From positions 544,001 through 608,000 of the forward strand of contig CBDCNQ010000002.1 in assembly GCA_965219445.1 (NCBI GenBank): 64,000 bases of DNA, given 5' to 3'. The translations under genes were made by a program, and so were the position numbers. Position 1 is the stretch's first letter, and every line of letters begins with the position of its first letter. The DNA comes from Longimicrobiales bacterium. Lineage in GTDB: Bacteria > Gemmatimonadota > Gemmatimonadetes > Longimicrobiales > Gaopeijiaceae. Positions 3,556 to 59,203 of the stretch are shown here, piece by piece. Below the pieces are notes generated by a model, which worked only from the letters and a program-made list of their open reading frames with translations, had not been told where the DNA came from and did no database searches.

Positions 3556-5027
3556 GCTCTCGACAAGCCCTCCCCCTTCTCTCCGCACCGATTCTTACGC
3601 GGGAGGCCGGCTCCGCGCCCGTCAATCCTGGGTCGCGCAGATGCAGGCGCTTCAGCAGCGTTCTCTGGTGTGCTGCGGTCCTCGTTTTCAGCGGGTGCGC
3701 CGCGGCGCCGTCTGGACCCGTGGGCCCTGTGATCTCACCAACAGGAATCGTCTACGAGCTGGGGACGCCGCCCGTCGGCACTCGCTTCTCACAAACAGGG
3801 GCGCTCTATCTTACCCAGGGGTTCAATGCCCGGACGCTGGAACTCGCGAATCAAGGCATCGAAGACGACCCGGAGAATCCGATTCATTACTTGCTGGCGG
3901 GGCTGGCACTCGTGCGGCTCCAGGAGTACAGCGAAGCGGACGCGATGTTCGCCAAGGCGCAGCAGATCTACCCAGCGTATGAACTCGATATCGAACCCGA
4001 GCGCGAGGCGGCGTGGATCGAGTTGTTCAACGCAGGAATCGCGGCGTTCGCCGAGGAGGACATCGAGGGTACGATCGAAGCTTGGGAACAGGCAGGAATG
4101 ATGTGGGACCTCCGTCCAGACGCGTCATTGAATCTCGCGACCCTATTCAACGGTGAGGGCCGGTGGGATGAGGCCATTGAGGCCCATCAGAGGGTGGTCG
4201 CGGGTCTTGGGCGGAGGCCCGTCACGCGAGTGCTCACCGAAGAAGAGGTTCAAGAGCGCGAGGATCTGAAAATGCGAAGCGAACAAAGCCACACTCAGCT
4301 CCTCCTCTTCAGGGAGCGTTTCGCCGAGGCTGAACCGCTACTTCAGCGCCACCTCGAGGCTGAACCAACGAGTATCCAGGTCCGGGGTGATCTTGCCGCG
4401 GCGCTCAATGGGTTGGGAAGGGATGCTGAGGCCGCGGAGATCTATACCGGTCTTCTCTCCGAGACCGGTCTGGAGACCAGAGAACTCTTCAGCGTTGGCG
4501 TCGCCCTATATCGTGCGACCGAATACATGGCGGCGGCCGAGGCGTTCGAACAACTGACGCAACGCGAGCCGGACTCGCGTGACGCGTGGTTCAACTACGC
4601 GAATGCCCTGTTGGCAGCCCAGGCGTGGGAGCTGTTAGCAGCTGTGGGTGATCGATTGGCCGAAGTGGATCCCCTGGGGGAGAACTCCGGTCTGATCGCG
4701 GCGCGAGCCCATCTGGAACTCGGAGACGAGCAATCCGCAGTGCAAGGGCTGAGTAGAACCGAATCCGCTCCAATCTACCTGGAGGAACTTCAATTTCGAC
4801 CGTCCCAAACGGAGACGAGCCTCCAAGGGCAAGTGGTCGGAAACGTTGCAGAACCGGGGAGTGAGGTCCGTCTCCGTTTCACATTCTATCGCGCCGACGG
4901 CACGCCAGGGACGGAGCTTCTCACGGTTTCGGCTCCCCCTTCCGGAGTGAGCGCGCGGTTCGAGGTCTCCTTTCCGGAGCAAGCTACGGCGTACCGGTAC
5001 GAGCTTGTGCAGCCTCCGCTTCCCTAG
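3549..5027 (+). CDS. Tetratricopeptide-repeat lipoprotein (start uncertain; TTG at 3549 assumed)
   Basis: Lipobox-like VFSGC, many TPR-like helices (DAWFNYANALL), C-terminal beta domain. Confidence 0.7.
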   Translation: MVGSRQALPLLSAPILTREAGSAPVNPGSRRCRRFSSVLWCAAVLVFSGCAAAPSGPVGPVISPTGIVYELGTPPVGTRFSQTGALYLTQGFNARTLELANQGIEDDPENPIHYLLAGLALVRLQEYSEADAMFAKAQQIYPAYELDIEPEREAAWIELFNAGIAAFAEEDIEGTIEAWEQAGMMWDLRPDASLNLATLFNGEGRWDEAIEAHQRVVAGLGRRPVTRVLTEEEVQEREDLKMRSEQSHTQLLLFRERFAEAEPLLQRHLEAEPTSIQVRGDLAAALNGLGRDAEAAEIYTGLLSETGLETRELFSVGVALYRATEYMAAAEAFEQLTQREPDSRDAWFNYANALLAAQAWELLAAVGDRLAEVDPLGENSGLIAARAHLELGDEQSAVQGLSRTESAPIYLEELQFRPSQTETSLQGQVVGNVAEPGSEVRLRFTFYRADGTPGTELLTVSAPPSGVSARFEVSFPEQATAYRYELVQPPLP

Positions 5028-37844: not shown

Positions 37845-38204
37845 AGGGGGTTCCCGGAACCGCGTACGACTCCCGTACGCGGCCTCCGACGGCCTCATTC
37901 GGATGGGCAAAGCGGGGGGTCCCATCCTTGGACGTTCGATGAGGCCGTTGAGCGCCTGGCTCCTCAGGTTGAGCAGGTAGAGCGCGAGGTTGAAGCCCTC
38001 CCTAGCCAACTCAGAGGCGCCAGAGTTGTCATCGAGGCAACCCTCCTCCCGAACTATCTCGCCGCCACATATTTCCCGACCCCCCTTCTCGAAGCCACTG
38101 GGTTTCAGTCGGTGGGCAGTCGCTCGACGACTGGAACTTACCGCACTCAAACGATGGAGCAGGAGAGGCCGACGAAGGTGCTGTTGTTGTCTGGAACTGG
38201 GGAG
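37845..38204 (+). pseudogene. N-terminal remnant of a probable S8 peptidase of the AAA-ATPase-associated (IetS-like) type, cut by IS256
   Basis: Start-less open frame reading HPWTFDEAVERLAPQ...TLLPNYLAATYFPTPLLEATGFQSVGSR up to the IS256 end; family assignment from memory of the motif. Confidence 0.45.
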
Positions 38205-38233
38205 GAGGTTGGGTCAATAGGTGTGTAAATGTT

Positions 38234-39478
38234 TCAGGCGGCGTTTTTCCGCTGTTGGGTTGAGACGGGCTTTCCGTCTTCGAACTTTCTTCCTTCAAAT
38301 ACGTCCTTGAGGAGGTGAGGAGCGTCGAGCCTTCTGAAGCGCTTCTCCGCCACCAAGAGCAGCTTCCAGATCAGCGCCGTAGCGCTCTCGACCCGCTTGA
38401 AGCGCTTCGCCGCCGTTGTCCTGAGCCGTACTGCGGCAAAGGGGCTCTCGACCACGTTCGTCGTGCGTAGATGCTTCCAGTGGTCCTCGGGGAAGTCGTA
38501 GAACGCCACCATCCGCTCCCAGTCGTCCTCGAGTACATCCACCGCCTTCGGATACCACGGTCTGTAGCGCCTGGCGAACGCCTCACGGGCCTTCAGCGCC
38601 TCGGACCGCCTCGGTGCGTAGACCACGGTCCTGAGAAGGTCCTTCGCCTCGCTCTGCTCCCGCTGAGGCAGCCGGTCCAGCACGTTCCTCATCTTGTGGT
38701 TCCAGCACCGTTGCTCGCCCGCCTCAGGCCATACCTGCCGTACTGCGCCCCAGATCGCCGCGTTGCCGTCCGCCATCAAAAGCCGGGGCGCCTCGATGCC
38801 GCGTGCCTTCAGATCCCGCAACACCTCGGACCAGGACTCGACCGACTCTCGGTAGCCCGATCTCAGGGCCAACACCTCCTTCGTACCATCTCGCATCGCA
38901 CCGAGAACCACCAGCAGCGCTGCCTTGTCCCGCTCGAGCCCCGCCTTCACGTAGATCCCGTCCGCCCAGACGTAGACGACCTCACGGTCGGCCAGCGAGC
39001 GCTTCGACCATTCCTCGAATTTCCTTGTCCATCCCGCCCGCAGCCGCCAAATCGAAGACTTCGACAACGGGGCCCCCTCGCCCAGCAGGCCCCGCATCGC
39101 CAGCTCGAAGTCTCCCTCCGCCAGCCCGTGCAGATACAGCTCCGGAAGCAGAGCACCCACCTCCTTCGTCCGTCGTGCGAACAACGGCAACACCCGACTC
39201 TCGAACCGCTCCTCAATGCCTCGAACCCGGGGCCGTCGGAGCATGATCGTGCCCGAGCTCATCGCCAGCCGCCGAGCCTTGCCGTAGCCGTTGCGGTAGC
39301 CTGGCGCCGGGTCTACGACCGTCTTCCGCTCCGACTTCTCCCGGCCGAGCAACTCCGTCACTTCCTCCTCCAGAATCCGCTGGACCATCTCCTGGGCCTT
39401 CTCACGAACCAGCGCTTCCAAGCACTCCCACGTCGGCGTGCTGGACTCACTCTCGGGTCCCACCATATTCTTCCTCAC
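38234..39478 (-). CDS. IS256-family (Mutator) DDE transposase, intact
   Basis: YRNGY, VWADGIY, MADG, QRCWNHK, RTTNVVES. Confidence 0.95.
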   Translation of the reverse strand: MRKNMVGPESESSTPTWECLEALVREKAQEMVQRILEEEVTELLGREKSERKTVVDPAPGYRNGYGKARRLAMSSGTIMLRRPRVRGIEERFESRVLPLFARRTKEVGALLPELYLHGLAEGDFELAMRGLLGEGAPLSKSSIWRLRAGWTRKFEEWSKRSLADREVVYVWADGIYVKAGLERDKAALLVVLGAMRDGTKEVLALRSGYRESVESWSEVLRDLKARGIEAPRLLMADGNAAIWGAVRQVWPEAGEQRCWNHKMRNVLDRLPQREQSEAKDLLRTVVYAPRRSEALKAREAFARRYRPWYPKAVDVLEDDWERMVAFYDFPEDHWKHLRTTNVVESPFAAVRLRTTAAKRFKRVESATALIWKLLLVAEKRFRRLDAPHLLKDVFEGRKFEDGKPVSTQQRKNAA

Positions 39479-39754
39479 GAGGCATCGTTCCTTTCCCCCG
39501 GGCGCTCACCCGGGATTCGCTGGTTAACTTCTTACTACCTAGCGGAAAGGTACGTCGCCTCTTTTTTTACACACCCTTCTATGGGGCTGGCGGTCAAGAC
39601 GCACCTTCCCCACGCGCCGTCGGCTCATTTTTTGACCGTCGGCGTCCGCATGGTTTGGATTGCCCGGTCGACGACTCAGGGTGGGGAGGGGTGCGCTCGC
39701 AGGGTCCGCATCGCAGTCCGGAAGACGTTCACAGCCGTCGCGTTCTCCGCTCTG

Positions 39755-39895
39755 GAGCGGGAACCATCCTTCTATCTGGGACTCTGTGGCCCATCGCTTC
39801 GTTCGGCTCTTCCAGGGGTGCATAGCCTTTGAGTGGGGGCTTGGGCTCTCTGCCCCGGCCCACGGTGTGTATGGATGCTGTCCCCTGTAACCGGT
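39755..39895 (-). ncRNA. Predicted bridge/seek RNA core (target- and donor-binding loops); limits approximate
   Basis: Guides UACACACC (39864-71), UCAAAGG (39826-32) and AUAGAAGG (39768-75) match the target and donor junctions and lie in stem-bounded internal loops. Confidence 0.72.
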
Positions 39896-39964
39896 TCGCT
39901 TCCGTTTCGTCGGACCCCATGTTGTGACCGCTTTCGACCCCACGCTCGCCGATCCCAGGCCGGT

Positions 39965-41020
39965 TTACTCCGTCGCTTCCAGTCTCTTGGGGTCGTACGC
40001 TTCGCCCGTGCGCCACACCGCTAGCACGATCGAGGCGAGCTGACGCGCGATCGTCAGCTTCGCCAGATTCGGCTTCGTGCCCCCCTCCAGGAGTCGCTCG
40101 TAGTGGCGGTACAAGGGTTCGTTTTCGGCCCGACCGATCACCGTCGTCGCCGCGCCCTTGAACACACGCTTCAGCGTGTGGTTGAAGTTCCGATTCAGCC
40201 CCCGCGTCTGCTGTACCGGTTCCCTTACCCACCGCCCACCCGGACCCCGCACCCAGTCCGACGAGCTCCGCATCACCACGCCCAGTCCGCAGTACGCCCA
40301 GAACCTGCTCCGGCTCTGGAACCGGTACGGCGTCACCACCACCGGCAGGAGCTCCGCCGTCCGGATCGGACCCAGACCCGGGCACGTCTTCAGCACATGC
40401 CACTCTCGATGCTTGCGTGCTTCCGCCAGCAACGCCTTCTCGGCCTTCGCCCTCAATGCCACGAGTGCGTCGTGCTCCTCGTACAGCAACCCGGCCGTCG
40501 TCCTGCTCGCTTCCGGCAGCTTGGCCAACCACTCCTCCCGGTCGCGCTTTAAGTAGACCGAGCGCCCCGCGCCGTAGGCCACTCCTCTCGAGCGCAGCAC
40601 GCTCTTGAGCCGGTTCTTCACCCGCACCGTGTCGCCGACCAGGAAGTCGTAGCTCTTCGCCCGTTCCCCCAGCCGCCTGAACTGGCCCCGGTTCTTGTAG
40701 ACCCTCGTCTCCAGTGATCCGATCCGCAGCTTCTCCGCCAGGGCAAACGCGTCCAGCTTGTCGGTCTTCGGGCCCCGGCTCTTGCCGACCCCCGCCACCG
40801 TCAGCTCCTCCACGTGCGGCTCCAGCACCTCGTACAGCCACCCCGACAGCGTCCCTTCTTCCAGGCATAAGTGCCGGTTCCTCGGAATCCCTCGCAGCAC
40901 CTCGATCAGCGCCCGCGCGTTCGTCTCCACCACCTGCGAGCCCAAGCGCTTGCCGCTGGGGCCTACAATCCCCAGCGTGCAGCTCGACGCGTGTGCGTCG
41001 AGTCCGATATATCTCTCCAT
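39965..41020 (-). CDS. IS110-family DEDD recombinase/transposase (351 aa)
   Basis: YIGLDAH, CLEEG, KTDKLDA (DEDD); CPGLG, YCGL, RSSS in the Tnp domain; RBS upstream of ATG 41020. Confidence 0.93.
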   Translation of the reverse strand: MERYIGLDAHASSCTLGIVGPSGKRLGSQVVETNARALIEVLRGIPRNRHLCLEEGTLSGWLYEVLEPHVEELTVAGVGKSRGPKTDKLDAFALAEKLRIGSLETRVYKNRGQFRRLGERAKSYDFLVGDTVRVKNRLKSVLRSRGVAYGAGRSVYLKRDREEWLAKLPEASRTTAGLLYEEHDALVALRAKAEKALLAEARKHREWHVLKTCPGLGPIRTAELLPVVVTPYRFQSRSRFWAYCGLGVVMRSSSDWVRGPGGRWVREPVQQTRGLNRNFNHTLKRVFKGAATTVIGRAENEPLYRHYERLLEGGTKPNLAKLTIARQLASIVLAVWRTGEAYDPKRLEATE

Positions 41021-41181
41021 CGGCGTTCTCCTCTTGGATAGGTGGGTTGCTTCCTTGCGCGAACAATGATGAACGCGCACCCGCTCCCGGAGGAGAACGC
41101 CTCTTCGTCTTCGGGCTGCTTCGCTGCTGATCGGTACCGGTAGCCGTCGCCATGCCCCTATGATGCCTTTGATCCTAGCTC

Positions 41182-41240
41182 CTGATGTACGCAGGACCAT
41201 CGAGAAGGACGTAGTGAGACAGCCATGCAGGTCTCCACAT
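41182..41240 (-). pseudogene. 5' stub of a gene coupled to the ATP-grasp gene, truncated by IS256
   Basis: TAATG overlap; MWRPAWLSHYVLLDGPAYI runs into the IS256 IR. Confidence 0.45.
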
Positions 41241-42229
41241 TAGGAACCCCTACGTCGTGCCGAGCGCGTCCGTCCGAGTAGCTCGGCCAGTTCGGCAGCG
41301 ATCGGAAACTGAACTTCCTCTTGGAGCCACGCCCACTCTCCCGTCGGGTTCACCTCCAGAAAAAAGAAGCGGTCGTCCGAGAGTGCGAGGTCTATTGCCG
41401 CGAAGCTCAGTCCAAGTCGGCGGGTCAACTCGATACAACGGGCTCCGACTGCCTGGGGAAGTGTGAACTCCGAGAAGACTACACTCGATTTCTTCAGCCG
41501 CCAGTCTCCGGCGATCCCGGATCCTCTTTCGGTTGCCGAAGCACACCACCAGCGATCCTCGACCACCGTCACCCGGAGATCCAGCTTGTCCGTCAAAGCT
41601 TGCTGGGCGACGAGCGGAGCTCCGCTCAGTTCTGCCTCTTCGAGTTCTTTTCGGAGCAGGAGATTCGTGTAACCGAAACTCTCGGTTGTCTCCGTCCTGA
41701 CCAAGACCGTGTCCAGCCCCTTGATCGCGACGACGGAACCGTTGACTCGGTCATCGAGAAAGTCGTCTGAGTTCAAGCAGTATGTCGCGGGGATGTCGAA
41801 GCCCACCTCAAATGCAGCCAGAAGCTGAATCATCTTATGTTCAGCTTCATAGGTCCGGGTCGGATGGTTGACCCATCGAGCCATGTCGAAGACCATCAGG
41901 TTGCGCAGGAACGCTGCCCACTGTGCCCGAGCGAATTGCTCCTCCGGTCGGCGTCCAGCTTGCGAAGCCTCCCGAAGAAAGGTTGGCCGTCGAAAGTACA
42001 CGCCTACGAGTCGGTCCGCCTCCACCTCGACGCGAACGTCTTCCGTGTGGCAGGACAACCGCCTCCGACACGGGTCGAGGCACAGCGTGTACGTGGGGAG
42101 GTCCTCGCTGTTAAGTCGGAAGTAGGGATGTCCGGACCTCCGCAGTGCCGATACGACGTAGTCGCACGACAGGTCATACCGGCTGGCGAGAACAAGCACC
42201 TTGGGACGAACCGTCGTGGTCGGAGGCAC
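41240..42229 (-). CDS. RiPP ATP-grasp ligase (graspetide synthetase, MvdC/D/RimK-like)
   Basis: WVNHP..AEHKMIQL, DLRVTVV, DWR, FAAIDL, FLEVNPTGEWAWL. Confidence 0.88.
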   Translation of the reverse strand: MPPTTTVRPKVLVLASRYDLSCDYVVSALRRSGHPYFRLNSEDLPTYTLCLDPCRRRLSCHTEDVRVEVEADRLVGVYFRRPTFLREASQAGRRPEEQFARAQWAAFLRNLMVFDMARWVNHPTRTYEAEHKMIQLLAAFEVGFDIPATYCLNSDDFLDDRVNGSVVAIKGLDTVLVRTETTESFGYTNLLLRKELEEAELSGAPLVAQQALTDKLDLRVTVVEDRWWCASATERGSGIAGDWRLKKSSVVFSEFTLPQAVGARCIELTRRLGLSFAAIDLALSDDRFFFLEVNPTGEWAWLQEEVQFPIAAELAELLGRTRSARRRGS

Positions 42230-56488: not shown

Positions 56489-56571
56489 TGTTCCTCCTTG
56501 CTAGGAAACGGCAGTGCGGATACATGAAACTGTCCCGGGTTTGAGGTCGGGTCAATAGGTGTGTAAACGTT

Positions 56572-57816
56572 TCAGGCGGCTGCTTTGCGCTGATGAGCTG
56601 AGACGGGCTTACCGTCCCTGAACTTCCTTTCTTCAAACACGTCCTTGAGCAGGTTTGGAGCGTCAAGCCTTCTGAAGCGTTTCTCCGCCACCGTCAGGAG
56701 CTTCCAGATGAGGGCGGTAGCACCTGTCGACGCGCTTAAATCGTTTTGCTGCCGACGTGCGGAGCCGTACCGAAGCGAACGGGCTTTCCACCACATTCGT
56801 CGTCCGTAGATGCTTCCAGTGGGCTTCGGGGAAGTCGTAGAACGTGACCATGCGGTCCCAGTCATCCTCGAGCACCGTCACAGCTTTCGGGTACCACGGC
56901 CCATAACGCTTGCCGAACGCCTGACGAGCTTTGAGCGCCGCGGCCCGTGTCGAGGCGTAGACGACTGTGCGCAGCAGTTCCTTGGCCTCTGACTGCCCGC
57001 GCTGCGGCAGCCGATCCAGGATGTTCCTCATCTTGTGATTCCAGCACCGCTGCTCGCCGGCCTCAGGCCACACCGTCCTCGCCGCGCCCCAGATCGCCGC
57101 GTTACCGTCGGCCATCAGTAGCTTCGGCGCTGCGAGGCCTCGAGCCTTGAGACCCCGAAAGACCTCCGCCCACGAGTCCGTTGACTCCCGGTAGCCTGAT
57201 GTGACGGCCAGAACCTCTTTCGTCCCGTCGCGCATGGCTCCCATCACCACCAGCAGCGCCGCTTTGTCTCGCTCCAGGCCCGCCTTCACGTAGATCCCGT
57301 CCGCCCATACGTAGACGACCTCACGGTCCGCCAAGGACCGCTTCGCCCACATCTCGAACTCACTCGACCACACGGCCCTGAGCCTGCGGATCGAAGCCTT
57401 CGACAGCGGCGCCCCCTCACCGAGTGGGCCCCTGAGCGCCAGCTCGAAATCCCCCGCGGCCAACCCGTGTAGGTACAGCTCCGGTATCAACTCCCCTACC
57501 TCCTTCGTCCGTCTCGCAAACAGCGGCAACACCGACTCTCGAAGCGTTCCTCCAGACCCCGTACCCGGGGGCGTCGCACCGTGATCGTGCCCGAACTCAT
57601 CGACAGCCGCCGCGCCTTGCCGTACCCGTTGCGGTAGCCAGGCGCCGCATCCACGGCTGCCTTCCGCTCTGACTTCTCACGGCCGAGGAGCTCGGTGACT
57701 TCCTCCTCCAAGATCTGTTGGATGAACTCCCGGGCCTTTTCACGGACCACTCCCTCCAGGCCCTCCCACAGCGGCATGGTGGACTCGGTCTCGGGTCCCG
57801 CGATATCCTTCCTCAT
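56572..57816 (-). pseudogene. IS256 transposase, two frameshifts
   Basis: Split over ORFs 57496-57846, 56663-57532 and 56572-56865. Confidence 0.9.
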
Positions 57817-58084
57817 GAGGCGACGTTCCTTTCCCCCGGGTGGCAACCCGGGACTCGCTGCTTAATGGTCAGCGGAAAGGTACGTCGCCTCTCTTTTTAC
57901 ACACCCTTCTATGGGGCTGGCGGTCAAGACGCACCTTCCCCACGCGCCGTCGGCTCATTTTTTTGACCGTCGGCGTCCGCATGGTTTGGATTGCCCGGTC
58001 GACGACTCAGGGTGGGGAGGGGTGCGCTCGCAGGGTCCGCATCGCAGTCCGGAAGACGTTCACAGCCGTCGCGTTCTCCGCTCT

Positions 58085-58220
58085 GGAGCGGGAACCATCC
58101 TTCTATCTGGGACTCTGTGGCCCATCGCTTCGTTCGGCTCTCCAGGGGTGCATAGCCTTTGAGTGGGGGCTTGGGCTCTCTGCCCCACGGTGTGTATGGA
58201 TGCTGTCCCCTGTAACCGGT
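58085..58220 (-). ncRNA. Predicted bridge RNA core, copy 2
   Basis: Same guides at 58189-96, 58156-62 and 58099-106; 5-nt deletion in the inner stem. Confidence 0.65.
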
Positions 58221-58289
58221 TCGCTTCCGTTTCGTCGGACCCCATGTTGTGACCGCTTTCGACCCCACGCTCGCCGATCCCGGCCCGGT

Positions 58290-59042
58290 TTACTCCGTCG
58301 CTTCCAGTCTCTTGGGGTCGTACGCTTCGCCCGTGCGCCACACCGCTAGCACGATCGAGGCGAGCTGACGCGCGATCGTCAGCTTCGCCAGATTCGGCTT
58401 CGTGCCCCCCTCTAGGAGTCGCTCGTAGTGGCGGTACAAGGGTTCGTTTTCGGCCCGACCGATCACCGTCGTCGCCGCGCCCTTGAACACACGCTTCAGC
58501 GTGTGGTTGAAGTTCCGATTCAGCCCCCGCGTCTCCGGCAGCTTGGCCAACCACTCCTCCCGGTCGCGCTTCAAGTAGACCGAGCGCCCCGCGCCGTAGG
58601 CCACTCCTCTCGAGCGCAGCACGCTCTTGAGCCGGTTCTTCACCCGCACCGTGTCGCCGACCAAGAAGTCGTAGCTCTTCGCCCGTTCCCCCAGCCGCCT
58701 GAACTGGCCCCGGTTCTTGTAGACCGTCGTCTCCAGTGATCCGATCCGCAGCTTCTCCGCCAGGGCAAACGCGTCCAGCTTGTCGGTCTTCGGGCCCCGG
58801 CTCTTGCCGACCCCCGCCACCGTCAGCTCCTCCACGTGCGGCTTCAGCACCTCGTACAGCCACCCCGACAGCGTCCCTTCTTCCAGGCATAAGTGCCGGT
58901 TCCTCGGAATCCCTCGCAGCACCTCGATCAGCGCCCGCGCGTTCGTCTCCACCACCTGCGAGCCCAAGCGCTTGCCGCTGGGGCCTACAATCCCCAGCGT
59001 GCAGCTCGACGCGTGTGCGTCGAGTCCGATATATCTCTCCAT
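58290..59042 (-). pseudogene. IS110 recombinase with a 303-bp in-frame deletion
   Basis: ...AKLPE|TRGLN...; lacks the equivalent of 40210-40512, including YCGL and RSSS. Confidence 0.9.
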
Positions 59043-59203
59043 CGGCGTTCTCCTCTTGGATAGGTGGGTTGCTTCCTTGCGCGAACAATGATGAACGCGC
59101 ACCCGTTCCCGGAGGAGAACGCCTCTTCGTCTTCGGGCTGCTTCGCTGCTGATCGGTACCGGTAGCGGTCGCCATGCCCCTATGATGCCTTTGATCCTAA
59201 CTC

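What the first reader, a model, noticed from the sequence alone, without database searches (positions are those of the whole stretch)
39755..39895. Readable bridge RNA in the IS110 3' non-coding region, with guides matching the IS256 IR
Seen on the minus transcript: outer stem (cagggg..gcau / augc..ccccug), left guide UACACACC identical to the target left half (39568-75), inner stem guggg..cccac, and right guide UCAAAGG complementary to CCTTTGA. A second loop has the same layout: AACGAAGC (39796-803; only 5/8 to donor-left tatgatgc), uggg..ccca, and AUAGAAGG complementary to the donor end CCTTCTAT. Known: IS621 bridge RNAs and IS1111 seekRNAs use such loops, and IS1111 encodes them 3' of the gene. 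Inference: a programmable recombinase with an apparent 4-nt CCTT core.
Basis: partly seen in the sequence, partly recalled or inferred. Interest (0 to 1): 0.85.

Follow-up and report, generated by a model that had tools for sequence, protein, structure and literature searches.

The report
Bridge RNA aimed at IS256 ends
A 1.6-kb IS110-family insertion sequence sits inside one terminal repeat of an IS256 element, and its 3' untranslated part holds a conserved two-loop fold, predicted to act as a bridge/seek RNA, whose loop letters match that IS256 repeat and the element's own ends; it is a clear new example of a mechanism described in 2024, not a new one.

Summary
Window 39576-41166 (minus strand) is a 1,591-bp IS110-family element with IS1111-like layout, inserted 15 bp inside one inverted repeat (IRL) of an IS256 element.

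- **The fold.** Its 3' non-coding region (core 39747-39887) folds into two internal loops.
- **Loop 1 matches the target.** AUACACACC pairs with GGTGTGTA, and UCAAAGG equals TCAAAGG.
- **Loop 2 matches the element's ends.** AUAGAAGG equals the right end. AACGAAGC pairs with only 5 of 7 bases of the left end.
- **Support from 36 relatives (39-97% protein identity).** Stems keep pairing through compensatory changes. Three of the four loop strands covary with their DNA half-sites (0 of 20,000 permutations each). The fourth covaries weakly (3 of 20,000).
- **Support from the genome.** It holds 22 full copies. No perfect target is empty. All 5 empty IRLs carry a change inside the site. All 29 copies of the other IS256 repeat, which differs in the left half, are untouched.

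Not shown: that the RNA is made. Metatranscriptome contigs did not cover it, and no promoter was predicted.

The "4-nt CCTT core" is an upper bound; relatives share only 2-3 nt.

Verdict: a new, deep-branching member of the known bridge/seek-RNA recombinase kind, with precedents for targeting other transposons. Interest is moderate.

The parts
39576..41166 (-). IS110-family element with IS1111-like layout, 1,591 bp. Its left end starts GCATCATAGGGG and its right end finishes CCCCATAGAAG.
   Evidence: There are 22 full-length copies in the genome with these limits. Left and right flanks joined reproduce the uninterrupted IS256 repeat seen in near-perfect empty sites and in metagenome contigs (loose ends at 39578).
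39965..41020 (-). Recombinase gene, 351 aa from the ATG at 41020 (stop included).
   Evidence: Pfam DEDD_Tnp_IS110 at 39.3 bits and Transposase_20 at 32.5 bits, both above cut-off. NCBIfam IS110 at 112.8 bits, below the cut-off of 140. A profile of 16 relatives hits the IS621 transposase 8wt6 at E 9.3e-13. D9, E55/56, D88, D91 and S254 are invariant.
39747..39887 (-). Predicted bridge/seek RNA core: target loop, donor loop and a 3' hairpin.
   Evidence: Alignment A1 of 36 relatives, RNAalifold and pair counts. Only 1 variable column in 141 among the 22 genomic copies.
39864..39872 (-). Target loop, 5' strand AUACACACC. It pairs with the top strand to the right of the crossover (GGTGTGTA, 8 nt).
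   Evidence: Sequence. Cognate match against non-cognate in relatives is 5.48 against 3.36, 0 of 20,000 permutations, n=31.
39826..39832 (-). Target loop, 3' strand UCAAAGG. It is identical to the top strand to the left of the crossover, so it pairs with the bottom strand.
   Evidence: Sequence. Cognate 7.37 against 4.25, 0 of 20,000, n=27.
39796..39804 (-). Donor loop, 5' strand GAACGAAGC. It pairs imperfectly (5 of 7) with the left-end start GCATCAT.
   Evidence: Fixed-register table. Compensatory changes occur in the L096 group (position 5) and in L107/L114 (6 contiguous pairs). Permutation gives 3 of 20,000 on 16 distinct combinations.
39768..39775 (-). Donor loop, 3' strand AUAGAAGG, identical to the right end plus the crossover bases.
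   Evidence: It covaries with the right end in relatives, each variant with the matching end: ATAGAAGG, ATGGAAGG, ATGGAAAG, ATAGAACC, ATAGGAGG, CTAGGAGG. Cognate 7.74 against 5.50, 0 of 20,000, n=31.
39747..39760 (-). 3' hairpin after the donor loop (CCGCU/AGCGG).
   Evidence: Helix 6: 4 of 5 pairs have changes on both sides, and 67.6% of cells are paired.
39576..39746 (-). Rest of the right end. It carries the subterminal inverted repeat (GCCCCAT) and a conserved TTGACC (39592-39597).
   Evidence: 0 variable columns in 171 among the 22 copies. TTGAC is conserved in relatives at a fixed distance from the end.
41154..41166 (-). Left-end start GCATCATAGGGGC. It holds the donor right half, the subterminal repeat and a -10-like CATCAT.
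   Evidence: TTGACC, a 17-nt spacer and CATCAT would be assembled in a circle junction (inferred).
39568..39575 (+). Target half inside the IS256 repeat, on the IS256 body side (tacacacc).
41167..41181 (+). Cut-off 15-bp tip of the IS256 left repeat (ctttgatcctagctc).
   Evidence: It is conserved next to all 22 left junctions. Target duplications of 8-9 bp lie outside it.
38205..39575 (-). Body of the IS256-family element. Its transposase gene is 38234-39478.
   Evidence: Pfam Transposase_mut E 8.1e-59. NCBIfam IS256 at 295.4 bits. The genome holds 20+ copies.

Best explanation
This is an IS110-family insertion sequence with IS1111-like layout whose 3' non-coding region likely gives a two-loop guide RNA (bridge RNA, or long seekRNA) that would direct its DEDD/serine recombinase to one terminal repeat of an IS256 element.

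Shown:
- The element's limits and its fixed place and orientation in the IS256 repeat.
- A conserved fold with two internal loops.
- Loop strands that match the target halves and the element's ends, and that change together with them in relatives.

Inferred, by analogy with IS621 and ISEc11:
- The element would excise as a circle whose abutted ends form the donor site CCCCATAG-AAG(G)-CATCATAGGGG.
- That junction would probably also form a promoter (TTGACC, 17 nt, CATCAT).
- The RNA would bind the recombinase.
- Loop 1 would pair with both strands of GGATCA-AAG(G)-GTGTGTA in the IS256 repeat.
- Loop 2 would pair with both strands of the circle junction.
- Strand exchange at the 2-4 shared bases would insert the element without a target duplication.
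For: **1. Element and site.** There are 22 full-length copies. Of these, 18 have both flanks from the same IS256 repeat, in one orientation. One sits in a look-alike non-IS256 site, and three have rearranged right flanks. There are 22 left and 21 right junctions with IS256 sequence.

**2. Protein.** The Pfam IS110 and Transposase_20 domains are present. A profile hits the IS621 and ISCro4 recombinases. DEDD-like and Ser positions are invariant.

**3. Fold.** In 36 relatives, 28 pairs in 6 helices are 89.0% paired, against 31-52% when slid. 13 pairs change on both sides, and the covariation score is 0.282 against 0.146, 0 of 500.

**4. Guides.**
- 3' target strand against left flank: 7.37 cognate against 4.25 non-cognate.
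- 5' target strand against right flank: 5.48 against 3.36.
- 3' donor strand against right end: 7.74 against 5.50.
- Each gives 0 of 20,000 permutations. The two target-strand tests, the ones repeated after dropping rows with repeated guides, still gave 0 of 20,000 (n=15 and n=27).
- The 5' donor strand gives 3 of 20,000, with compensatory changes.

**5. Natural specificity.**
- 0 perfect empty sites exist.
- 5 of 5 empty IRLs with the region intact carry a substitution or 1-nt indel inside the 14-nt matched zone.
- 29 uninterrupted copies of the other repeat share the right half, but read TCAATAG rather than TCAAAGG on the left, and 0 are occupied.
- By my arithmetic, 19 occupied-perfect against 5 empty-changed gives a Fisher p of 1/42,504.

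**6. Constraint.** Among the 22 copies the four guides are invariant. The RNA core has 1 variable column in 141 and the rest of the right end has 0 in 171. The 5' non-coding region has 15 in 143.

**7. Independent hits.** 11 copies lie beside identical IS256 bodies, yet all 11 IS110 sequences differ.

**8. Order of guides.** The strand complementary to the top strand lies 5' of the other, as reported for IS1111-type seekRNAs (PMC11187229 section 9).
Against: - No transcript is shown. Two metatranscriptome runs gave only 286- and 153-nt contigs in the 5' part of the recombinase gene.
- The sigma-70 scan found 0 promoter-like sites in 39500-41250.
- The single-sequence fold is not unusually stable (z -1.0; 33 of 200 shuffles fold as well).
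- Rfam 15 has no matching family, even at E up to 10.
- The 5' donor strand pairs with only 5 of 7 bases in this element, and the inner donor helix slips register in relatives (74.3% paired).
- The recombinase scores below NCBIfam's IS110 cut-off (112.8 against 140). It lacks the P and the SG of the G--P----S(T)G motif (GLGVVMRSSS).
- Relatedness of the sequences inflates permutation tests.
- The diversity of the IS110 copies beside identical IS256 bodies could also come from gene conversion.
Confidence: 0.85

Rival explanations
1. Only a short seekRNA carrying the first loop is the active species, as for the 82-96-nt RNAs that copurify with IS1111-type transposases. The second loop would not guide donor recognition. 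The ends would be recognised through the subterminal inverted repeats by the protein, or through the flanking target halves.
For: PMC11187229 (sections 9 and 12) reports that short RNAs with only target matches are the main species and suffice, and that the donor must be flanked by the target. The 5' donor strand here pairs with only 5 of 7 bases. Subterminal repeats are present and covary.
Against: The 3' donor strand changes together with the right end in six sequence variants. The outer helix of the second loop has compensatory changes (helix 4, 98.3% paired). The second loop is invariant in the 22 copies.
Confidence: 0.1
2. The matches are DNA-level features, not RNA. The right end would carry recombinase-binding or synapsis sites that resemble the target and the ends, as in att-site recombination, and the fold would be incidental.
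For: No RNA evidence here. No promoter predicted. The fold energy is unremarkable.
Against: The stems keep pairing through changes on both sides, including G-U intermediates, which matters for RNA and not for duplex DNA (86 cells with changes on both sides against 26.6 shuffled). The two matches in each loop are to opposite strands and sit exactly in the unpaired strands. Homologues use RNA (PMC11208160, PMC11187229).
Confidence: 0.03
3. The pattern that every perfect site is occupied reflects one ancestral insertion followed by transposition of the IS256::IS110 composite as a unit. It would not reflect repeated RNA-guided hits.
For: Target duplications of 8-9 bp flank the whole composite in at least 6 copies. 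The 15-bp IS256 tip is kept at the far side.
Against: Beside 11 identical IS256 bodies lie 11 different IS110 sequences in two length classes, and 21 of 22 copies are distinct. There is one insertion in a non-IS256 look-alike site. Relatives with other guides sit in other sites. This rival concerns only the occupancy pattern, not the RNA.
Confidence: 0.15

Closest known systems
IS621 bridge RNA and recombinase (IS110 group; Durrant et al. 2024, PMC11208160, passages read; structures 8wt6-9)
   Same: - DEDD plus Ser recombinase, detectable by profile (E 9.3e-13).
- One RNA with a target loop followed by a donor loop.
[quoted passage not shown]
- The two pairings overlap at the crossover.
- The donor is more conserved than the target, and pairing to the right donor half is weak.
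   Different: - The RNA lies 3' of the gene, not 5'.
- The order of the two strands within each loop is reversed.
- The shared crossover bases are AAG(G) here (AG, AC or AA in relatives), not CT.
- The subterminal repeats are long.
- Protein identity is too low for phmmer to detect.
IS1111-type seekRNAs of ISEc11, ISPa11, ISKpn4 and ISPst6 (Siddiquee et al. 2024, PMC11187229; sections 6, 9, 12, 13 read)
   Same: - Long non-coding region downstream of the gene.
- Subterminal inverted repeats.
- The top-strand-complementary match lies 5' of the bottom-strand one.
- The two matches overlap in the target.
- A promoter is assembled at the circle junction (here inferred).
   Different: - This is a deep-branching clade. 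The best plasmid-borne relative is 27.6% identical.
- The G--P----S(T)G motif reads GLGVVMRSSS.
- A clean second internal loop covaries with the right end. Durrant et al. say many IS1111 members have donor-binding bases in a multi-loop.
[quoted passage not shown]
   Same: An IS1111-type element that inserts at one position and in one orientation inside the terminal repeat of another transposon.
   Different: - The host element is an IS256-family IS, not a Tn3-family transposon.
- Only one of the two repeats is hit here, because the other differs in the left half.
ISEc21 (IS110 group), which targets a conserved region inside IS3-family transposase genes (PMC11187229 section 12)
   Same: A seekRNA-guided IS whose natural target is another IS. 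A natural retargeting was seen in a relative (ISMch6).
   Different: The target there is coding sequence, the RNA is 5' of the gene and the guide order is opposite.

Membership tests
IS110 family (DEDD recombinase elements) | N-terminal RuvC-like DEDD domain | tested here: met
   PF01548 at 39.3 bits against a cut-off of 29. D9, E55/56, D88 and D91 are invariant in 16 relatives and align to the acidic residues of IS621 in the profile alignment.
IS110 family (DEDD recombinase elements) | C-terminal Transposase_20 domain with a conserved serine | tested here: met
   PF02371 at 32.5 bits against a cut-off of 21.3. S254 is invariant and S253 nearly so.
IS110 family (DEDD recombinase elements) | NCBIfam equivalog NF033542 score above its curated cut-off | tested here: not met
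   112.8 bits against 140, although the alignment is end to end (5-341 on 1-342 of 343). This is a divergent member.
IS110 family (DEDD recombinase elements) | Site- and orientation-specific insertion without a target duplication | tested here: met
   Flanks of the 18 IS256-borne copies join to the uninterrupted repeat with no duplicated bases beyond the shared AAG(G). Uninterrupted sites are seen in metagenome contigs.
IS1111 group | Longer non-coding region, and the RNA, downstream of the gene | tested here: met
   146 nt upstream against 389 nt downstream. The conserved fold is at 39747-39887.
IS1111 group | Subterminal inverted repeats of 7 nt or more | tested here: met
   The longest ungapped shared run here is GGGGC, 5 nt; by eye, allowing indels, about 12 of 14 positions pair (ATAGGGGCATGGCG against CGCCAGCCCCAT). 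Relatives have CATAGGGG, TATAAAAGGG or GGAAGG on both ends, changing together. The ungapped repeat finder did not list the repeat because of indels.
IS1111 group | GL-P----S(T)G motif in the C-terminal domain (PMC11187229 section 6) | tested here: not met
   The sequence here is GLGVVMRSSS. V stands in place of P and S in place of G, and the consensus of 16 relatives is GLGIVTRSSS.
IS1111 group | Guide complementary to the top strand lies 5' of the guide complementary to the bottom strand | tested here: met
   AUACACACC (5') is complementary to the top strand, and UCAAAGG (3') is identical to it. The rule is from PMC11187229 sections 9 and 12.
Bridge RNA (two-loop guide RNA) | Two internal loops closed by helices that are kept in relatives | tested here: met
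   Helices 1-4 are 93.8-100% paired with compensatory changes. Helix 5 is 74.3% paired.
Bridge RNA (two-loop guide RNA) | Target-loop strands covary with the two target halves | tested here: met
   0 of 20,000 permutations for both strands, and also after removing repeated guides (n=15 and n=27).
Bridge RNA (two-loop guide RNA) | Donor-loop strands covary with the two element ends | tested here: inconclusive
   The 3' strand against the right end is clear. The 5' strand against the left end pairs 5 of 7 here, with a weak signal (3 of 20,000 on 16 combinations) resting on a few compensatory changes.
Bridge RNA (two-loop guide RNA) | The RNA is transcribed and bound by the recombinase | not testable with these tools
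   Only contigs of two metatranscriptome runs were available, and they did not cover the region. No promoter was predicted.
Bridge RNA (two-loop guide RNA) | A defined core shared by donor and target and included in all four pairings | tested here: inconclusive
   The shared bases are AAGG here. Among 24 relatives they are AG or AAG in 11, AC in 5, AA in 2 and unresolved in 6. In L067 and L087 the last position differs between left and right junctions. Each pair of guide strands overlaps by one base only.

The most novel reading that the evidence does not exclude
The element is a dedicated parasite of another transposon, locked in an arms race with it.

- In this genome it has filled every IS256 copy whose left repeat matches its guides.
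- The only IS256 copies that stay free carry single-base changes in the guided 14 nt.
- A 95%-identical relative (L069) carries guide changes that move it towards the other IS256 repeat.

By splitting the repeat 15 bp from its tip, the insertion may also disable IS256. In that case the RNA-guided element would act as a brake on an IS256 burst.
Probability: 0.3. Interest if true: 0.6.

Novelty: new member of a known kind. Interest (0 to 1): 0.4.

Why it matters
The mechanism is already known, so the value lies in how clear this case is.

- **Readable from sequence alone.** This is a deep-branching clade, found in MAGs labelled Gemmatimonadota, Myxococcota, Acidobacteriota and Gammaproteobacteria. 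Its 3'-encoded RNA has two simple loops, and all four guide strands can be read directly.
- **A natural specificity experiment.** One genome provides 22 hits, 5 single-change escapes and 29 untouched near-targets. This indicates which positions matter without any bench work.
- **Possible practical use.** The compact RNA (about 140 nt), the crossover bases other than CT and the many naturally retargeted relatives could be useful to people who collect bridge recombinases.
- **Ecology of mobile elements.** It adds an IS256-family repeat to the list of mobile-element parts that IS110-family elements target.

Tried and rejected
- **Rfam 15 scan** of 38000-41500 at E up to 10: no family.
- **phmmer against PDB chains:** no hit. 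Only the profile reached IS621.
- **Public runs.** Two RNA (metatranscriptome) runs held 0.09 and 0.05 of the sampled words. When laid, they gave one 286-nt and one 153-nt contig at 40652-40937, plus a 106-nt contig at the IS256 edge. Nothing covered 39747-39887. This says nothing about whether the RNA is made.
- **Sigma-70/terminator scan:** 0 promoters, and 1 terminator-like site in the 5' region against 1.3 expected.
- **Ungapped inverted-repeat search:** it did not list the subterminal repeats. They were seen only by comparing ends across relatives.
- **Longest-common-substring test for the 5' donor strand:** no signal (2.56 against 2.47; 4,922 of 20,000). Only the fixed-register count gave a weak one.
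- **More copies of the L069 variant,** to define its target: single copy. Its apparent retargeting to the other IS256 repeat (7 of 9 and 6 of 9 matches) therefore stays an anecdote.
- **Earlier notes of this scan:** nothing near.
- **Literature search** for an IS110-family element that targets an IS256 repeat (four terms, 2 papers, listing only): neither title nor abstract start concerns this.
- **The 134-aa minus-strand ORF over the RNA (39539-39943)** was considered and rejected as a gene. A 1-nt indel at 39811 splits the 22 copies 8 to 14, and relatives differ by further indels there.

Full report
**What is there.**
The window is part of contig C2 of a 4.56-Mb genome. Its nearest public relatives are Longimicrobiales MAGs (record titles).

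On the minus strand lie two transposase genes in tandem.
- One is an IS256/Mutator-type gene (38234-39478; Pfam E 8.1e-59; NCBIfam IS256 at 295.4 bits).
- Upstream of it is a 351-aa IS110-family gene (39965-41020). Pfam DEDD_Tnp_IS110 and Transposase_20 are both above cut-off. NCBIfam IS110 scores 112.8 bits, below its cut-off of 140.

A BLAST of the region against the whole genome gave 22 full-length copies of a 1,590-1,597-bp unit with fixed limits, plus fragments. In its own orientation the unit starts GCATCATAGGGG and ends CCCCATAGAAG. In the window it is 39576-41166.

**Where it sits.**
In 18 of the 22 copies both flanks are the same IS256 sequence, in the same orientation...GAGCTAGGATCAAAG on the left and GGTGTGTAAAAAAAG... 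on the right.

Comparison with IS256 copies that lack the insert shows the two flanks are one 27-bp terminal repeat, GAGCTAGGATCAAAGGGTGTGTAAAAA. Target duplications of 8-9 bp lie just outside the GAG tips. The element is therefore inside the repeat, 15 bp from its tip, not beside it.

Joining the flanks reproduces the uninterrupted repeat with no duplication. Contigs of three public runs read straight through such an uninterrupted site (loose ends TGATCCTAGCTC after 39578).

Donor and target share AAGG at the crossover in this copy.

**The fold.**
I aligned the 3' non-coding region of the window with 35 non-redundant relatives from the genome collection (39-97% protein identity). The layout, 5' to 3', is:
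- an outer helix in two parts (CAGGGG/CCCCUG and GCAU/AUGC);
- an internal loop;
- an inner helix with a variable hairpin;
- a linker;
- a second outer helix (GAGCC/GGUUC);
- a second internal loop;
- a short inner hairpin;
- a 3' hairpin.

RNAalifold recovers the outer helices and the first inner helix, with 8 of 18 pairs changed on both sides.

For my 28-pair structure:
- 89.0% of 996 cells pair, against 31-52% when the partner is slid by 1-3 columns;
- 86 cells carry changes on both sides, against 26.6 in shuffles;
- the covariation score is 0.282 against 0.146, 0 of 500.

The inner helix of the second loop slips register in some relatives (74.3% paired).

The single-sequence energy is unremarkable (z -1.0), and Rfam has no matching family.

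**The loops read the DNA.**

*Loop 1.*
- The 5' strand CCAUACACACCGU contains AUACACACC. Its complement GGTGTGTA is the top strand just right of the crossover (8 nt).
- The 3' strand CCACUCAAAGGCU contains UCAAAGG, identical to the top strand left of and across the crossover (7 nt).

*Loop 2.*
- The 3' strand GAUAGAAGGAU contains AUAGAAGG, identical to the right end plus crossover (8 nt).
- The 5' strand GAACGAAGC pairs with the left-end start GCATCAT at 5 of 7 positions (A.A and C.A mismatches).

*Do they change with the DNA?* I located the ends of each relative by short degenerate motifs. I then compared every loop strand with its own flank or end, and with those of the other elements.
- 3' target strand against left flank: mean longest match 7.37 cognate against 4.25 non-cognate, n=27.
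- 5' target strand against right flank: 5.48 against 3.36, n=31.
- 3' donor strand against right end: 7.74 against 5.50, n=31.
- Each gives 0 of 20,000 permutations. The two target-strand tests, repeated after dropping rows with a repeated guide, again gave 0 of 20,000 (n=15 and n=27).

Examples:
- Left-flank/guide pairs: GGGCCAC, GGGGCAC, TGGGCCAC and TACCCAC in four Acidobacteriota-type elements; ATTCACAGG in L123; GCATAGG in L087.
- Right-flank/guide pairs: GCAAAACAA (L073), GAGACACTT (L084), GAAAAACAA (L082).
- Right-end/donor-strand pairs: ATAGAAGG, ATGGAAGG, ATGGAAAG, ATAGAACC, ATAGGAGG, CTAGGAGG.

Misses also exist. L078, L085, L087, L089, L094, L101 and L124 match their right flank by only 3-4 nt, and L069, L098, L107, L112, L114 and L124 match their left flank by 4-5 nt. 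Some of these are likely rearranged or decayed copies.

*The 5' donor strand.* The substring test gave nothing. In a fixed register there are compensatory changes.
- The L096 group changes left-end position 5 C>T together with RNA G>A.
- L107 and L114 have CGAUAC opposite GTATCG, 6 contiguous pairs.
- Left ends with G at position 6 restore a pair.
- Permutation gives 3 of 20,000 on 16 distinct combinations.

For IS621, too, the natural pairing to the right donor half is short (PMC11208160, passage).

**A natural specificity experiment.**
- The genome has 0 uninterrupted perfect sites.
- It has 22 left and 21 right IS256 junctions.
- Five IS256 copies have the left repeat intact and empty. Each is changed inside the matched zone: TCGAAGG, TCAGAGG, GGTGAGTA, one A deleted, and TCAGAAGG.
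- A sixth empty copy has lost the repeat.
- The other IS256 repeat, GGGTCAATAGGTGTGTAAAT, shares the right half but not the left. It occurs 29 times uninterrupted and never with the insert.
- One copy sits in a non-IS256 site whose left half matches the guide over 9 nt (ACTCAAAGG) and whose right half has GGTGTG one base out of register.

**Constraint and history.**
Among the 22 copies the four guide strands never vary. The RNA core has 1 variable column in 141 (an A present in 8 and absent in 14 copies, at 39811 in the linker), and the rest of the right end has 0 in 171. The 5' non-coding region has 15 in 143 and the gene 19 in 1,059 (region limits are off by 3 nt at the start codon).

Eleven copies lie beside IS256 bodies that are identical over 1,371 nt. 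Their IS110 sequences are all different, by 4-19 mismatches from the window copy and in two length classes. This favours repeated entry into new IS256 copies over spread of the composite, but gene conversion is not excluded.

**Other anatomy.**
- *Subterminal repeats.* The ends carry subterminal inverted repeats that change together in relatives (CATAGGGG, TATAAAAGGG, GGAAGG).
- *Possible junction promoter.* A TTGAC box sits at a fixed distance from the right end in most relatives, and reads TTGCG or TAGTC in six. In a circle it would lie 17 nt from CATCAT or CATTAT at the left end. That promoter is inferred. Such junction promoters are reported for ISEc11 and ISEc21 (PMC11187229 section 12).
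- *Crossover bases.* Left and right junctions share AG or AAG in 11, AC in 5 and AA in 2 of 24 relatives, and 6 are unresolved in my register. In L067 and L087 the last position differs between the junctions. The 4-nt core is therefore an upper bound.

**Comparison with what is known.**
Durrant et al. predicted bridge RNAs in 93.0% of ISfinder IS1111 elements, in the right end. They note that donor-binding bases often sit in a multi-loop (passages). Siddiquee et al. showed 82-96-nt seekRNAs from the downstream region of IS1111-type elements, with the top-strand-complementary match 5' of the other. They also showed that ISEc21 targets IS3-family transposase genes (sections 9 and 12). IS4321/IS5075 target Tn21-family repeats; I saw only the title.

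This element has the IS1111 layout and guide order but is not a typical member. The motif is GLGVVMRSSS rather than GL-P----S(T)G, the NCBIfam score is below cut-off, and the best plasmid-borne relative is 27.6% identical. Only a profile reaches IS621 and ISCro4. The residue numbering of IS621's catalytic residues is recalled, not checked.

One literature search for an IS110-family element that targets an IS256 repeat found nothing relevant (listing only). Supplements of the two 2024 papers, which list predicted RNAs and targets for ISfinder entries, were not opened and might hold relatives.

**Verdict.**
It is a new, well-resolved member of a known kind. The interest lies in the clean two-loop 3' RNA of a deep clade and in the saturation-and-escape pattern on IS256.

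Noticed in passing
window 57906-59188 (minus), next to 56543-57950: This is a second copy of the same IS110-family element, with an internal 302-bp deletion in the recombinase gene (element positions 656-957 missing). It keeps the RNA region and both ends. It sits in the repeat of an IS256 relative only about 80% identical to the main type.
   Followed up: partly
G000 C2:416896-419858 and C2:464838-467800; C3:150575 and C3:162173; window copy and C2:272183: The 8-9-bp target duplications outside the IS256::IS110 composites are swapped between pairs of copies. For example, the outer left of one copy equals the outer right of another. This points to inversions or other rearrangements by recombination between copies. 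One pair links contigs C4 and C5.
   Followed up: no
G000 C5:1611141-1613244; L065:3609-4656: These are tandem partial repeats of the 3' part of the element. In the own genome a full copy is followed directly by a copy of element positions 1081-1591. In a relative's genome the RNA region occurs three times at 458-nt spacing, each right end joined to a site inside the 3' end of the recombinase gene. The origin is unexplained.
   Followed up: no
G000 C2:336725-338314: This is the one full copy outside IS256. It lies in gcagACTCAAAG|...|GTGTGAcgcagc. The left half matches the guide over 9 nt and the right half over 6 nt, one base out of register.
   Followed up: partly
window 39576-39746 (minus): This 171-nt stretch between the RNA core and the right end is invariant in all 22 copies and has conserved blocks in relatives. 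Beyond the subterminal repeat and the TTGACC box, its role is unknown. It could be part of a longer RNA.
   Followed up: no
L069 (locus from a 95%-identical relative), 2485-2500 and 3632-3763: The guides differ from the window's at 3 positions of the 3' target strand and 1 position of the 5' strand. The left flank is the tip of the other IS256-type repeat (GAGGTTGGGTCAATAG). Matches are imperfect (7 of 9 and 6 of 9), and the element is single-copy in that genome.
   Followed up: partly
window 41240-42229 (minus): This 329-aa ORF lies next to the IS256 tip and has no Pfam family at E up to 0.001.
   Followed up: no
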